Positions 10,601-13,582 of a stretch of DNA of 32,000 nucleotides are shown here, in pieces. The notes beneath the pieces were generated by a model. The model made no database searches and was not told the DNA's origin. It was given only the letters and a program-made list of their open reading frames with translations. Position 1 is the first letter of the stretch. Every line of letters begins with the position of its first letter. Position numbers and translations under genes: made by a program. This DNA comes from Candidatus Heimdallarchaeota archaeon (lineage in GTDB: Archaea > Asgardarchaeota > Heimdallarchaeia > JABLTI01), in the NCBI GenBank assembly GCA_030614005.1, contig JAUWKS010000004.1:30001-62000 (forward strand), in the 5' to 3' direction.

Positions 10601-11560
10601 ATGCATACAGAACAAGAATTGGAGATGGAAATAGAAAAAGTTCTAATTGCTGGATTAGATAATGCCGGGAAAAGCTCAATTCAAGATATATTGAAATATA
10701 TCCCAATTGAAGCTGCGCAGAGAAGAACACCGAGTAAAGATCTTGAGATATCAGAAAAAAAATTCTTAAAAAAGAAGTATATCTTTTTCATTCCACCAGG
10801 ACAAGAAGATTTACGGTTGAAAGAATTTCATGGTACAATGAAAAATGAGTATTTTGAAAATGTTAGTACGTTCATTTTTGTTGTTGATTCATCTGAAATT
10901 GAAAGAGTAAATGAAGCTAGAGAAGAGTTACAAAGATCAATTGAAGATCTAATGCTGCTTTCTCCTGAATGTAAAAAATTTATTCTTCTTGCTCATAAAC
11001 AAGATCTAGACGAAGCTGAAAATGGGTTATCTCTCAAAAAGCAAATTCTCGATCCTTTAAATCATCTTTTTCCAAATATTATTTATCAATTCAAAATATT
11101 TGAAACAACACTCTTTAGTCCTGAGACAATTCATGAACCATTTGTAAAAGTTATTGCTAAACATGTTGGTATAAATAGATTCGATTTTGATAAATTGGCT
11201 GAATGGGTTCGAAAGCAAACGAATGCTAAAATCGTTCTTGTTACTGACCCCAATGGGTTACTCATTGGAGAATCATTTACAGGTATTGAAAATTCCACTG
11301 TTTTTGCTGCTTATGTAGCAAAAATTTTCTCTGCTATTGAAGACTTTCAAGCAGATTTAGAAGTTGGAGGGATAAAAATTATTGTCCTTGAGGATGAAGA
11401 TGAGTCAAATTATAGTATAGTATCCAGAATTAATTGCACAAAAGATGATTATTTAGCACTTTTAATTGGATTTCCAAAAACGCAAATTGGGATGACGAGA
11501 ATCATAAATCGCACAGGGTTAAGTCATTTGAAGGATGCTTATAATAGCTATAAGACTTAA
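10601..11560 (+). CDS. Rag/Gtr-like small GTPase fused to a C-terminal roadblock domain
   Basis: G1 GLDNAGKSSIQ, G3-like IPPGQ, FVVDS, G4 HKQD, G5 region ETTLF; from about aa 195 a roadblock pattern (VLVTDPNGLLIGES, long helix, three strands, GM..I helix). Confidence 0.8.
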   Translation: MHTEQELEMEIEKVLIAGLDNAGKSSIQDILKYIPIEAAQRRTPSKDLEISEKKFLKKKYIFFIPPGQEDLRLKEFHGTMKNEYFENVSTFIFVVDSSEIERVNEAREELQRSIEDLMLLSPECKKFILLAHKQDLDEAENGLSLKKQILDPLNHLFPNIIYQFKIFETTLFSPETIHEPFVKVIAKHVGINRFDFDKLAEWVRKQTNAKIVLVTDPNGLLIGESFTGIENSTVFAAYVAKIFSAIEDFQADLEVGGIKIIVLEDEDESNYSIVSRINCTKDDYLALLIGFPKTQIGMTRIINRTGLSHLKDAYNSYKT

Positions 11561-11610: not shown

Positions 11611-12672
11611 ATGATTACAAGTACAAAGTTGGGCATAATTCTTGTTGAATTTGATTCACTTAAAGGACCAGTTATTCGAAATAAAAATCCAAAGAATTTT
11701 CAAATTCCAAATGAAACAAATGATGAAAATTTACTTATGTGGATATTAAGAGCAAATGAGTTCTCTGTTCGAAAAATTGGAAAGCAAACAGCATTTGCAA
11801 AAGCTATTTCTTTGGATGACCCAAATTTTCCTAGAAAGAAAAGACAGTTTGGATTAGGATTAATAGCTCAACCAACTATAGATTTGATTGAAGCAGAGAA
11901 AATCTTAGATTTAATTATTTCTACAAGTAAAAAAATAAGTAATAATAAACCATACTTTAAGATGCTAAATGGATTATTAACTTCAATTGCTAATTTCATA
12001 ATTCCAAGTGAATTCAGCAATAGTGAAACTCTATCACCTCAAGAAAGAAAACCAATGAGCAGAATTCAAAATGAAATTATTCTGAAGCAAGAAACACCAC
12101 GTATGCTAATTAGTAACAAATTTAATGTATTTCAAAAAGTAGTCATTTCTTCAAAGCAATCAAATTATACCATTTCTATTGGAAACAAAGAAACCTCCCT
12201 TGAATTAGAAAGAAATACTTCACATAAAGAAATGAGCATTTCTACAGAAAAAATGAAAATTGATGTTGTAGTTCAAAAAGATATTCCGGAGAACTTACAG
12301 ATAGGGCTAGATATTTTTTCAAGAATACTAGATGTTGTAATAGATATATCAAATATTGAGAATAGGGTAGTATCCAGTTTGGAGTTTTTGGATAGATTAC
12401 TACTTGAAGATGTTGATATTCACTATTACATGCCTTTCTCACAATACCTAGTTGCAATGGAAGCATATACCATATCTGAATTTAAAAATGAAGAAATTGA
12501 AGATCAAATTGCTAATTTCAAAGATACATACGGAGAATGGGTAGAGTGTATAATTGGAAAGGAATTTGATGGAAAAAAATTAGCTGAATTTTTCACTGTA
12601 ACAGGTATAACACGTGAGAGTTTAGAATTACTGATTGACCTATTATTTGTGAAACTTGTTGCAATCTTTTAA
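11611..12672 (+). CDS. Longin/uDENN-domain protein resembling NPRL2/folliculin-type GAP subunits, with a possible C-terminal winged helix
   Basis: N-terminal IILVEFDSLKGPVI...P and ISLDDPNFPRKKRQFGLGLI match the longin pattern of NPRL2/FLCN/SMCR8 as recalled; C-terminal FDGKKLAEFFTVTGITRESLELLIDLL is wHTH-like. GGTG-type SD upstream. Confidence 0.6.
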   Translation: MITSTKLGIILVEFDSLKGPVIRNKNPKNFQIPNETNDENLLMWILRANEFSVRKIGKQTAFAKAISLDDPNFPRKKRQFGLGLIAQPTIDLIEAEKILDLIISTSKKISNNKPYFKMLNGLLTSIANFIIPSEFSNSETLSPQERKPMSRIQNEIILKQETPRMLISNKFNVFQKVVISSKQSNYTISIGNKETSLELERNTSHKEMSISTEKMKIDVVVQKDIPENLQIGLDIFSRILDVVIDISNIENRVVSSLEFLDRLLLEDVDIHYYMPFSQYLVAMEAYTISEFKNEEIEDQIANFKDTYGEWVECIIGKEFDGKKLAEFFTVTGITRESLELLIDLLFVKLVAIF

Positions 12673-12721: not shown

Positions 12722-13582
12722 ATGACCCATTCCATCAACGAGAAGAAAGCACAATCCAATTCGATAATTATTCCAGATACGCCCGCAATAATGTTTAATG
12801 AAAAGGAATATAATAAAACATTAATTGTTTCTGATTTACACATTGGATACGTTTATGGAAGAAACACAAAAGGAATCATCCTTCCTGAATCAAAACGACC
12901 AGAAGATGATATCATTCGATTGCTTGATGAAAAACAACCAGACACGCTAATATTTCTTGGGGATTTTAAAGACGATATTTATGGAACACCACATCCAATT
13001 GCTGGAAGGATTTGGAAGTTTCTTAAACAATTAATGAAAAAGACTAATGTCATAATAATTAAAGGAAATCATGATGGGAAAATTGAAGAAATCATTCCGG
13101 AAGAAATAACTCTTATTCAACCTGAAGGATTGCTATTAACCCAAAAAGAAACAAATAAATCGATTGGTCTTTGGCATGGACATGCTTCACCAGCCTTAGA
13201 TGCATGGACAGCAGACATAACTATTTCTGCACATGCTCACCCAGCATATACTTTTCGTGATGAGATTGGATCCAAGATAACTCAAAAAGTTTGGGTAAAA
13301 GCAAAGTGGTTGAATGCCAAAGAAGGAAAACCGGATAGAATTCATATTATCATTCCCCCATTCAACAGATATATTGAAGGATATTCTGTAGATAGTGATT
13401 ATTTTAAAACAATAGTATTAATGAGAGATGCAATTGATTTTGATAATGCTGAAATATTTACTCTCGAGGGAATTTTAATTGGTACATTAAAAAATCTCCG
13501 AGAGAATAGAAGAGAACTAGAAAGGAGATTAAATACATTAAGAAAAGAAGTAAATGCTAGTAAAAAGAAAAGAAAATACTAG
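12722..13582 (+). CDS. Calcineurin-like metallophosphoesterase (archaeal ICC/COG1407-like)
   Basis: Five motifs in order: SDLH, LGD, GNHD, HGH, HAHP. AAGGAGG SD upstream. Confidence 0.88.
   Translation: MTHSINEKKAQSNSIIIPDTPAIMFNEKEYNKTLIVSDLHIGYVYGRNTKGIILPESKRPEDDIIRLLDEKQPDTLIFLGDFKDDIYGTPHPIAGRIWKFLKQLMKKTNVIIIKGNHDGKIEEIIPEEITLIQPEGLLLTQKETNKSIGLWHGHASPALDAWTADITISAHAHPAYTFRDEIGSKITQKVWVKAKWLNAKEGKPDRIHIIIPPFNRYIEGYSVDSDYFKTIVLMRDAIDFDNAEIFTLEGILIGTLKNLRENRRELERRLNTLRKEVNASKKKRKY

What the first reader, a model, noticed from the sequence alone, without database searches (positions are those of the whole stretch)
11611..11880. Putative arginine finger (Arg75) at the NPRL2 Arg78 position
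Seen: LDDPNFPRKKRQFGLGLI, with Arg75 at codon 11833-11835. It aligns without gaps to human NPRL2 IEHKKYSRNALLFNLGFV (recalled from memory), putting Arg75 on Arg78, the established GATOR1 catalytic arginine; FLCN Arg164 and SMCR8 Arg147 occupy the equivalent loop. The N-terminal EFDSLKGPVI also matches NPRL2 EFHPTLGPKI, and the C-terminus is wHTH-like as in NPRL2/3. Inference: an active GAP rather than a scaffold-only longin.
Basis: partly seen in the sequence, partly recalled or inferred. Interest (0 to 1): 0.72.

Follow-up and report, generated by a model that had tools for sequence, protein, structure and literature searches.

The report
Archaeal Rag-type GTPase with longin GAP candidate
A Heimdall-group archaeon encodes, right after a Rag-like GTPase gene, a protein whose first domain carries the two signature motifs, including an invariant arginine, of the eukaryotic longin-type GTPase activators NPRL2 and folliculin, so it is a good but untested candidate for an archaeal forerunner of that switch.

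Summary
ORF 11611-12672 (353 aa) reads LDDPNFPRKKRQFGLGLI, with Arg75 at 11833-11835.

Arg75 is invariant in 30 orthologues. It is one of only six invariant columns (F14, D15, G19, P20, D70, R75) once distant homologues from a second Asgard lineage are added. Arg78 becomes Lys in some of them.

BLASTP, hhalign and MAFFT all put Arg75 on NPRL2 Arg78 and G19-P20 on G20-P21. The statistics are weak (best hhalign P = 0.005). The link to a folliculin-type paralogue in the same genome is stronger (P = 3e-5), but there the finger arginine sits one residue earlier. The AlphaFold2 model is a longin domain, and NPRL2 and Npr2 are its best solved and Atlas matches.

New here:
- The gene order "Rag-like GTPase-roadblock, then this longin" recurs in four Asgard families whose other neighbours differ.
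- The C-terminal half starts with a second longin-like domain rather than a recognisable NPRL2 C-lobe.

No Pfam NPR2, NPR3 or IML1 match was found, so this is not a GATOR1 orthologue. Asgard longins with a GP motif and an arginine finger were published in 2025. I file this as a new member of a known kind. GAP activity is untested.

The parts
10601..11560 (+). Rag/Arf-like GTPase with a C-terminal roadblock domain (P0002, 319 aa); the presumed substrate GTPase
   Evidence: Pfam Arf 9.3e-16, Gtr1_RagA 5.4e-15, Robl_LC7 0.0088. PDB matches include Arf1, the Lokiarchaeal RagA-like 8yl2_A over residues 11-293, RagA and Gtr1. Orthologues lie immediately upstream of the longin gene in 11/11 loci.
10790..10804 (+). 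G3/switch II motif IPPGQ. The catalytic Gln68 is kept, but the Walker-B Asp of DxxGQ is replaced by Ile64.
   Evidence: (aligned to Arf1 WDVGGQ). Partner GTPases in the other lineages read VTPGQ, VFPGQ or ALPGQ.
11611..12672 (+). 353-aa two-lobed longin protein (P0001); candidate GAP
11623..11991 (+). Longin domain 1 (residues 5-127): b1 7-15, b2 19-26, a1 38-47, b3 52-56, b4 59-70, b5 73-86, a2 92-110, a3 115-127
   Evidence: AF2 model, per-block pLDDT 71-94 over residues 11-130. Best solved matches are NPRL2 8fw5_B (Z 10.0) and 8adl_S (Z 9.4); Foldseek top rows are GATOR1 chains at E 1e-5. ESM Atlas structural neighbours are Asgard longins and eukaryotic PF06218 NPR2 clusters.
11665..11670 (+). 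GP motif (Gly19-Pro20) at the start of beta2
   Evidence: Present in all 28 sequences that cover it and invariant across both families. Aligned to NPRL2 G20-P21. This motif is described as specific to GAP-type longins in PMC12290439.
11818..11853 (+). Conserved hairpin motif DPNFxRKKRQFG (residues 70-81)
   Evidence: D70, P71, N72, R75, R78, Q79, F80 and G81 are invariant in 30 sequences.
11833..11835 (+). Arg75 codon (AGA); candidate arginine finger
   Evidence: Invariant in 30/30 orthologues and in all ten homologues examined from families f20 and f23 except two f23 ones, where the arginine sits one residue earlier. Aligned to NPRL2 Arg78.
12019..12096 (+). Disordered, length-variable linker (residues 137-162)
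   Evidence: pLDDT below 50; variable in length and sequence in A1.
12100..12453 (+). Second, divergent longin-like alpha/beta domain (about residues 164-281), without GP or Arg motifs
   Evidence: Separate AF2 model, pLDDT 85. All 50 top VIA-align rows are longin, SRX, sigma-adaptin or TRAPP folds at Z 5.1-7.6. Atlas rows include Clat_adaptor_s and Fuz_longin_2. No sequence similarity to domain 1.
12463..12669 (+). C-terminal helical domain (about residues 285-353); strongly conserved, fold not assigned
   Evidence: No Pfam match. Only weak, mixed structural matches at Z 4-5.
12722..13582 (+). Metallophosphoesterase gene, 49 nt downstream. Conserved next to the pair only within this GTDB family, so probably not part of the core module.
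   Evidence: Pfam Metallophos 2.8e-9. Present in L001, L003 and the P0009 contig. Absent from the distant loci.

Best explanation
ORF 11611-12672 encodes a two-lobed protein found in one Heimdallarchaeial family. Its N-terminal longin domain belongs to the NPRL2/FLCN/SMCR8 class of longin-type GTPase-activating proteins.

The gene is most likely co-transcribed with the gene just upstream, which encodes a Rag/Arf-like GTPase with a C-terminal roadblock domain. I propose that the longin protein is that GTPase's GAP. In this model the longin platform docks on the switch regions. The beta4-beta5 hairpin inserts Arg75 into the nucleotide pocket next to the GTPase's own Gln68. The neighbouring GP motif (G19-P20) shapes the catalytic pocket.

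The second longin-like domain, or a second copy of the protein, would play the part that NPRL3, FNIP or C9orf72 plays in eukaryotes.

Shown here: the fold, the motif conservation, the alignment to NPRL2 Arg78, and the conserved gene pairing. Inferred: binding, GAP activity, the role of Arg75, and the role of the second domain.
For: 1. Fold. The AF2 model of residues 5-127 is a canonical longin domain. The best solved matches are NPRL2 (8fw5_B, Z 10.0, 200 residues aligned) and a yeast SEA-complex chain (8adl_S, Z 9.4). Foldseek's top rows are GATOR1 chains at E 1e-5. ESM Atlas structural neighbours include three eukaryotic PF06218 NPR2 clusters.

2. Motifs. Across 18 sequences from two Asgard lineages only F14, D15, G19, P20, D70 and R75 are invariant. 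These are the GP motif and the arginine that PMC12290439 names as the signature of GAP-type longins.

3. Residue mapping. BLASTP, hhalign (P = 0.0053) and MAFFT all put R75 on NPRL2 R78. The spacing from the arginine to the conserved aromatic residue of beta5 is +5 in both proteins.

4. Superfamily link.
- hhalign against a paralogue in the same genome that passes the Pfam Folliculin cut-off gives P = 3.1e-5.
- A distant homologue itself reaches the PF11704 cut-off (23.4 against 23.3 bits).

5. Gene pairing.
- The GTPase-roadblock gene lies directly upstream in 11/11 loci of family f1.
- It also lies 0-5 nt upstream, or overlapping, in families f20, f23 and f25, where the other neighbours differ.
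- GTPase orthologues co-occur with the longin in 9/9 genomes of the genus, plus the window's own genome.

6. Substrate. The GTPase keeps the catalytic Gln68, so a Gln-plus-trans-Arg mechanism is possible.
Against: - No Pfam family matches this protein or any of 29 relatives. The NPRL2 alignment is not significant as a database-style search (E 0.24-0.31; P 0.005 with the wider profile).
- In the more significant folliculin-type alignment, the finger arginine falls on variable position 74, one residue before Arg75. Arg78 falls on FLCN Arg168. Exact equivalence therefore depends on a one-residue register shift in the hairpin.
- No residue-level structural superposition could be made, because the tools give aligned ranges only.
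- One homologue (f25, L059) lacks both arginines yet keeps the adjacent GTPase. Pairing therefore does not require the arginine.
- Most longin and roadblock dimers are GEFs or scaffolds. The two-domain model also aligns with the tri-longin GEF subunits Fuzzy/Inturned and Mon1 (Z 7.5-8.4).
- The GTPase has an unusual G3 motif without Asp and an invariant Arg41-Arg42 just before the switch I Ser45, which could change the catalytic requirements.
Confidence: 0.55

Rival explanations
1. The protein is a GEF or a passive platform for the neighbouring GTPase, like Mon1-Ccz1, Fuzzy-Inturned, DENN proteins, TRAPP or Ragulator. On this reading the conserved GP and Arg residues serve folding or binding, not catalysis.
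For: - There are two longin-like domains in tandem.
- The full model aligns across both domains with CPLANE chain 7q3d_C (Z 8.4, 187 residues) and Mon1 9rs7_A (Z 7.5, 193 residues).
- Most known longin and roadblock dimers are GEFs or scaffolds (PMC3747258, PMC10933270).
- A homologue without the arginines keeps the GTPase neighbour.
Against: - PMC12290439 reports the GP motif and hairpin arginine as absent from non-GAP longins. Here they are the only invariant positions.
- NPRL2 and Npr2 rank above the GEF longins in three structure searches.
- The sequence link is to folliculin-type longins.
Confidence: 0.2
2. The protein is a longin-type GAP, but the catalytic residue is not Arg75. It could be Arg78 or Lys76, or the GTPase could supply its own arginine (Arg41/Arg42 before switch I) with the longin only positioning it, as MglB does for MglA.
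For: - Arg78 is also invariant in the 30 orthologues.
- Arg78 aligns without gaps to the second conserved arginine of folliculin-type longins, FLCN Arg168.
- Arg41-Arg42 are invariant in the 11 GTPase orthologues, three and four residues before Ser45.
Against: - Arg78 is Lys in several distant homologues, whereas Arg75 stays Arg.
- The Arg41-Arg42 pair is absent from the partner GTPases of the distant lineages.
- NPRL2-based alignments select Arg75.
Confidence: 0.15
3. The resemblance to GAP longins is only a shared fold plus a chance basic motif. The protein has a role unrelated to the GTPase, for example its basic hairpin binds lipid or nucleic acid, and the gene adjacency is inherited synteny.
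For: - No Pfam match.
- Weak NPRL2 statistics.
- Within family f1 the whole neighbourhood (RpoB, FAD protein, A24 peptidase) is syntenic, so adjacency there says little.
Against: - The pair recurs in three further families where the surrounding genes differ.
- hhalign to a Pfam-validated folliculin-type longin gives P = 3e-5.
- The invariant positions coincide with the published GAP-longin signature (PMC12290439).
Confidence: 0.07

Closest known systems
NPRL2 / yeast Npr2, the catalytic subunit of GATOR1/SEACIT (Arg78 / Arg84)
   Same: - N-terminal longin domain, then a linker and a C-lobe.
- GP motif at beta2.
- Arginine on the beta4-beta5 hairpin with the same +5 spacing to the beta5 aromatic residue.
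- Best structural match.
- Its substrate is a Rag-type GTPase with a roadblock domain.
   Different: - No PF06218 match.
- No NPR3 or IML1/DEPDC5 match in the genome.
- The C-lobe modelled alone matches longin folds, not the NPRL2/3 C-lobe.
- Sequence similarity is only marginal.
Folliculin (FLCN Arg164) / Lst7 and SMCR8 (Arg147): longin-DENN GAPs
   Same: - GAP-type longin with GP motif and hairpin arginine.
- The family links by profile to a folliculin-type paralogue in the same genome (P = 3e-5), and a distant homologue reaches the PF11704 cut-off.
- D70, R78 and F80 align without gaps to FLCN D160, R168 and Y170.
   Different: - No DENN domain.
- The two arginines are spaced RxxR here, not RxxxR, so Arg75 is one residue out of register with Arg164.
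- This protein itself does not reach PF11704.
Asgard 'Folliculin/SMCR8 longin domain-containing' proteins with GP motif and arginine finger (Traffic 2025, PMC12290439), and NPRL2-like Asgard proteins (Liu et al., bioRxiv 10.1101/2020.10.19.343400)
   Same: Same idea, already published: Asgard (notably Heimdallarchaeial) longins keep the GP motif and the arginine in the same arrangement and may be GAPs.
   Different: - Those papers leave the partner GTPase open and report no operon with a Rag-like GTPase.
- Liu et al. report NPRL2-like architecture in Thor and a few Loki MAGs.
- This family escapes Pfam and has a second longin-like domain.
- I could not check whether it is among the 15 proteins of that paper, because no supplement is held.
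MglB-MglA (bacterial roadblock GAP with a Ras-like GTPase)
   Same: A prokaryotic longin/roadblock-fold regulator encoded next to its small GTPase.
   Different: MglB is a roadblock homodimer that supplies no arginine finger. The GTPase here has a Rag-type architecture.
Tri-longin Rab GEF subunits (Mon1, Ccz1, Fuzzy, Inturned, HPS1/4)
   Same: Tandem longin domains in one chain; two-domain structural alignments at Z 7.5-8.4.
   Different: Those have three longin domains and act as GEFs. PMC12290439 lists no GP or Arg signature for non-GAP longins. Here there are two longin-like domains plus a helical domain.

Membership tests
Longin-type GAP catalytic subunits (NPRL2 / FLCN / SMCR8 class) | Longin fold (b1-b2-a1-b3-b4-b5-a2-a3) | tested here: met
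   AF2 model secondary structure and pLDDT. Longin-fold proteins fill the structure-search lists.
Longin-type GAP catalytic subunits (NPRL2 / FLCN / SMCR8 class) | GP motif at the b1-b2 loop or the start of b2 (PMC12290439) | tested here: met
   G19-P20 begin b2, are invariant and align to NPRL2 G20-P21.
Longin-type GAP catalytic subunits (NPRL2 / FLCN / SMCR8 class) | Conserved arginine on the b4-b5 hairpin at the NPRL2 Arg78 / FLCN Arg164 position | tested here: met
   Arg75 is invariant and lies at the start of b5 after the P71-N72 turn. It aligns to NPRL2 Arg78. Caveats: it is one residue after the FLCN-type arginine, and no residue-level superposition was available.
Longin-type GAP catalytic subunits (NPRL2 / FLCN / SMCR8 class) | Sequence-profile membership (Pfam PF06218 NPR2 or PF11704 Folliculin) | tested here: inconclusive
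   No hit for this protein or 29 relatives. A distant homologue reaches PF11704 at 23.4 against 23.3 bits. hhalign to a paralogue that passes PF11704 gives P = 3.1e-5.
Longin-type GAP catalytic subunits (NPRL2 / FLCN / SMCR8 class) | Works as a dimer with a second, non-catalytic longin domain | tested here: inconclusive
   No paralogue of this protein in the genome. A second longin-like domain exists in the same chain. Its pairing with domain 1 was not tested.
Longin-type GAP catalytic subunits (NPRL2 / FLCN / SMCR8 class) | Arginine-dependent stimulation of GTP hydrolysis | not testable with these tools
   Needs a biochemical assay.
GATOR1 NPRL2 orthologue | NPRL3 and DEPDC5/Iml1 partners encoded in the genome | tested here: not met
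   No PF03666 or PF12257 match at E <= 1 in the 90%-complete genome.
GATOR1 NPRL2 orthologue | NPRL2-type C-lobe (repeated winged-helix domains, PMC3747258) | tested here: inconclusive
   Full-length alignments to NPRL2 run across both lobes. Modelled alone, however, the C-lobe matches longin folds, and it aligns only to the N-terminal longin ranges of NPRL2 and NPRL3.
Rag/Gtr GTPases (for the upstream gene) | GTPase domain followed by a C-terminal roadblock domain; HKxD G4 motif | tested here: met
   Pfam Gtr1_RagA plus Robl_LC7. Full-length matches to 8yl2_A and Gtr1 8fw5_D. HKQD at 10994-11005.
Rag/Gtr GTPases (for the upstream gene) | Canonical DxxGQ G3 motif | tested here: not met
   IPPGQ: Ile64 replaces the Asp and is conserved as I or V in 11 orthologues.
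Tri-longin Rab GEFs | Three tandem longin domains | tested here: not met
   Two longin-like domains, then a helical domain.

The most novel reading that the evidence does not exclude
This is a minimal, self-contained archaeal version of the Rag-GATOR1/FLCN switch. A single chain carries a catalytic longin (GP motif plus Arg75) and a non-catalytic longin-like domain, so the heterodimer of eukaryotic longin GAPs would form within one protein. It is inherited as an operon with its own Rag-like GTPase across several Asgard families. That would place a matched Rag-type GTPase/longin-GAP pair before eukaryogenesis and give the first defined GTPase-regulator pair in Asgard archaea.
Probability: 0.3. 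Interest if true: 0.75.

Novelty: new member of a known kind. Interest (0 to 1): 0.55.

Why it matters
Which small GTPase each Asgard longin or roadblock regulator acts on is an open question. Tran et al. 2024 (PMC10933270) note that Lokiarchaeal GTPase genes are generally not in operons with such regulators. The 2025 Traffic paper (PMC12290439) explicitly asks whether Arf-like or Rag-like GTPases are the partners of the Asgard longins that carry the GP motif.

The pairing found here recurs in four Asgard families and names a concrete candidate pair. It could be expressed and assayed directly, using R75A, R78A and GP-motif mutants. If the protein is active, arginine-finger catalysis by longin GAPs on Rag-type GTPases would predate eukaryotes.

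Tried and rejected
- Complex prediction (two copies of longin 1-135, GTPase 1-195, GTP and Mg) gave "no answer": median score 0.32, while a control scored 0.39. It counts neither for nor against binding.
- Pfam found nothing for this protein or any of 29 relatives. HMMER searches of PDB sequences with the single protein and with the family profile found nothing relevant. The same was true for the distant homologue and for the folliculin-like paralogue.
- Pfam NPR2 searched over 200 Asgard genomes gave only two sub-threshold hits, so it could not serve as a bridge.
- hhalign of the family against vertebrate NPRL2 alone was not significant (E = 0.31). It reached P = 0.005 only after distant homologues were added. 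I could not widen the NPRL2 profile beyond vertebrates, because the listed hits were all vertebrate.
- hhalign of domain 1 against the C-terminal half showed no internal repeat.
- The supplement of PMC12290439 is not held, so I could not check whether this family is among its 15 Asgard longins.
- The profile search of the large protein collection added only three more distant homologues.
- The match of residues 270-312 to a 2537-aa protein is to a tenfold 5'-nucleotidase C-domain repeat. I take it as spurious.
- Model coordinates are not exposed, so I could not measure where Arg75 sits relative to NPRL2 Arg78 in a superposition.
- The winged-helix reading of the last 70 residues found only weak, mixed matches at Z 4-5.
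Full report
**What is there**

The window comes from a Heimdall-group Asgard archaeon. Related contigs are titled Candidatus Heimdallarchaeota, and the genome is 3.6 Mb and 90% complete.

Three genes on the + strand follow a 517-nt gap after the divergently transcribed RNA polymerase subunit B gene:
- 10601-11560, a 319-aa GTPase (P0002);
- 11611-12672, a 353-aa protein (P0001);
- 12722-13582, a metallophosphoesterase.

The gaps between them are 50 and 49 nt. The first gap has no T-run and carries a GGTG just upstream of the start codon.

**Checking the observation**

P0001 reads EFDSLKGPVI at residues 13-22 and LDDPNFPRKKRQFGLGLI at residues 68-85. Arg75 is AGA at 11833-11835.

- A 24-mer around Arg78 matches PDB 6ces_N residues 67-90 exactly.
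- The EFHPTLGPKI string is residues 14-23 of mammalian NPRL2.

The ungapped 18-residue pairing scores 23 in BLOSUM62. It is the best window in both directions, and the runners-up score 12 and 13.

**Conservation**

P0001 has about 50 relatives, all from Heimdall/Asgard metagenome bins. An exhaustive HMMER pass over 1.84 billion representative proteins found only 13 clusters.

- In 30 aligned sequences, D70, P71, N72, R75, R78, Q79, F80 and G81 are invariant. G19-P20 are present in every sequence that covers them.
- A profile of the longin part, searched over 300 Asgard genomes, found the family in 10/10 genomes of one GTDB family (f1). It also found distant 253-261-aa homologues in another family, f20.
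- A wider profile reached f20 (5/5 genomes), f23 (2/7) and f25 (1/1).
- With five of these distant sequences added, only six columns stay invariant: F14, D15, G19, P20, D70 and R75. Lys76 is nearly invariant, and Arg78 is Lys in two of them.

Conservation therefore favours Arg75 over Arg78.

**Fold of the first domain**

AlphaFold2 with the family alignment (pLDDT 81) gives a canonical longin domain at residues 5-127. Arg75 lies at the start of beta5, just after the P71-N72 turn of the beta4-beta5 hairpin. G19-P20 lie at the start of beta2.

- Foldseek against the PDB puts chains of GATOR1 complexes first (E 1e-5 to 4e-5, alignments of about 400 columns), then a yeast SEA-complex chain. Other longins (DENND10, FLCN, FNIP2, Lst4) start at about 1e-3.
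- The Foldseek-independent search puts NPRL2 chain 8fw5_B first (Z 10.0, 200 residues aligned over model residues 5-353). 8adl_S is second (Z 9.4). A Lokiarchaeal longin, Lst4 and DENND1A follow at Z 8.4-9.0. One search confirms that 8fw5_B and 6ces_N are NPRL2. I infer the identity of the other GATOR1 chains from their lengths.
- ESM Atlas structural neighbours of residues 5-138 are Asgard stand-alone longins and three eukaryotic clusters annotated PF06218 NPR2. The feature-based Atlas search gave the same picture, at scores that count only as leads.

**Residue mapping**

No tool gave a residue-level superposition, so the mapping rests on alignments.

- hhalign of the family profile against a vertebrate NPRL2 profile gives the same alignment at E = 0.31.
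- With the distant homologues in the profile, the same alignment reaches P = 0.0053.
- MAFFT of 14 diverse sequences again puts NPRL2 Arg78 in the Arg75 column.

In both proteins the arginine is five residues before the conserved aromatic residue of beta5.

The link to folliculin-type longins is statistically better:
- One distant homologue just reaches the Pfam Folliculin cut-off (23.4 against 23.3 bits, E 6e-5).
- hhalign of the combined profile against a 417-aa paralogue in this same genome, which passes that cut-off, gives P = 3.1e-5.

In that ungapped alignment, D70, R78, F80 and G81 fall on the paralogue's D79, R87, F89 and G90. The paralogue's "ARG" arginine falls on variable position 74, one residue before Arg75.

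Human FLCN reads DSLARGFQRWY, with Arg164 and Arg168. Folliculin-type longins therefore have RxxxR, while this family has RxxR. The two f23 homologues follow the folliculin register.

The safest statement is this: Arg75 is the first arginine of a conserved pair on the finger hairpin. It is in register with NPRL2 Arg78 and one residue off FLCN Arg164.

**The partner GTPase and the gene pairing**

P0002 matches Pfam Arf and Gtr1_RagA and has a weak Roadblock match at its C-terminus. Over its full length it matches a Lokiarchaeal RagA-like protein (8yl2_A) and fission-yeast Gtr1 (8fw5_D). It keeps the P-loop, Gln68 and the Rag-like HKQD, but its G3 motif is IPPGQ with no Asp.

- Its orthologues lie directly upstream of the longin gene in all 11 f1 loci that have upstream sequence. 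They co-occur with the longin in every genome of the genus that was searched. Within f1 the whole neighbourhood is syntenic, so this alone is weak evidence.
- The decisive point is that in f20, f23 and f25 the distant longin homologue again sits 0-5 nt downstream of, or overlapping, a 318-368-aa Rag-like GTPase. Four of the five checked by script match the P-loop pattern, all five carry an Asp-less (V/A)(T/F/L)PGQ G3 motif, and four have an (H/N/T)KxD G4 motif. The remaining neighbours there are unrelated: an aminotransferase, ribosomal protein L15e and a translation factor.
- The two GTPase groups are only 26% identical.

This supports a functional pair. I found no published description of this operon. 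Liu et al. describe a different LAMTOR1-like/Rab-like/DENN operon. Tran et al. note the general lack of such operons in a Lokiarchaeon.

**The rest of the protein**

A disordered, variable linker (residues 137-162) joins domain 1 to a C-lobe.

- Modelled alone (pLDDT 85), the first 110 residues of the C-lobe match only longin-type folds. These include AP-3 sigma (Z 7.6), SRX (7.4), VAMP7 (7.0), synbindin and C9orf72 (6.9), and the NPRL3 N-terminal longin (6.3). All 50 top rows are of this kind, and the Atlas rows agree.
- These Z values are in the range the tool calls common. I therefore treat "second longin-like domain" as likely rather than proven.
- It carries no GP or Arg motif and has no detectable sequence similarity to domain 1.
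- The NPRL2/3 C-lobes were not recovered, and the last 70 residues have no clear match.
- The genome has no Pfam-level NPR2, NPR3 or IML1.

For these reasons I do not call this a GATOR1 orthologue.

**Mechanism and rivals**

The best reading is a longin-type GAP for the co-encoded Rag-like GTPase, with Arg75 as the finger working alongside Gln68 (confidence about 0.55).

The rivals are:
- a GEF or scaffold role, supported by the tandem-longin resemblance to tri-longin GEFs and by an arginine-less homologue that keeps the pairing;
- a GAP whose key residue is Arg78, or the GTPase's own Arg41/Arg42;
- no functional link to the GTPase at all.

The single complex prediction allowed gave no verdict.

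**Novelty**

Asgard NPRL2-like longins were reported by Liu et al..

What this locus adds:
- a Pfam-invisible family with that signature;
- a conserved operon that names the likely substrate GTPase;
- a probable second longin-like domain in the same chain.

Noticed in passing
window 10790-10804; also L029-L031 and L054-L059: The partner GTPases all lack the Walker-B Asp of DxxGQ. They read IPPGQ or VPPGQ in family f1 and VTPGQ, VFPGQ or ALPGQ in the distant lineages, while Gln is kept. An Asp-less G3 motif seems to be a hallmark of this Rag-like subfamily.
   Followed up: partly
window 10721-10735: Arg41-Arg42 are invariant in the 11 GTPase orthologues (RRxPS). Arg42 lies three residues before Ser45, which aligns with the switch I Thr48 of Arf1. 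The pair is absent from the distant partner GTPases (ALDTEPS). From memory, RagA and Gtr1 have an RR pair in a similar place.
   Followed up: partly
L045 (G000 contig C74, 32422-35601): The same genome encodes a 417-aa folliculin-type longin protein (it passes PF11704; FDDRIGP and NARGGNRAFG motifs). It lies divergently next to a 203-aa Arf-family GTPase. In another Asgard genome (L058) a 454-aa folliculin-like protein is followed by an Arf-like GTPase. This may be a second type of longin/GTPase pair.
   Followed up: partly
L044 (G000 C57) and L046 (G000 C74): Two further PF11704-matching ORFs appear to start at the position of helix alpha1 (MKSHLSTLSL / MKTMVSALSF). They would therefore lack strands b1-b2 and the GP motif. 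This could reflect truncated longins or wrong start calls.
   Followed up: no
L059 (G084 contig C274): The f25 homologue keeps the GP motif and its adjacent GTPase (ALPGQ, NKQD) but has no arginine at either hairpin position (NSYHQFSL). It may be a naturally finger-less variant, which would be useful as a comparison.
   Followed up: partly
L060, L061 (family f13): The weak longin matches here lie inside 307-aa proteins that begin with a response-regulator receiver-like sequence. This fits the fusions of NPRL2-like longins with two-component domains described by Liu et al.
   Followed up: no
window 12722-13582: A metallophosphoesterase gene follows the pair at 49 nt in every f1 locus seen, but not in the distant lineages. 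Its link to the pair is unknown.
   Followed up: partly
P0001 residues 270-312 (window 12418-12546): HMMER reported nine weak repeated matches of this stretch to a 2537-aa protein that consists of ten 5'-nucleotidase C-terminal domains. This is probably a repeat-amplified chance match.
   Followed up: partly
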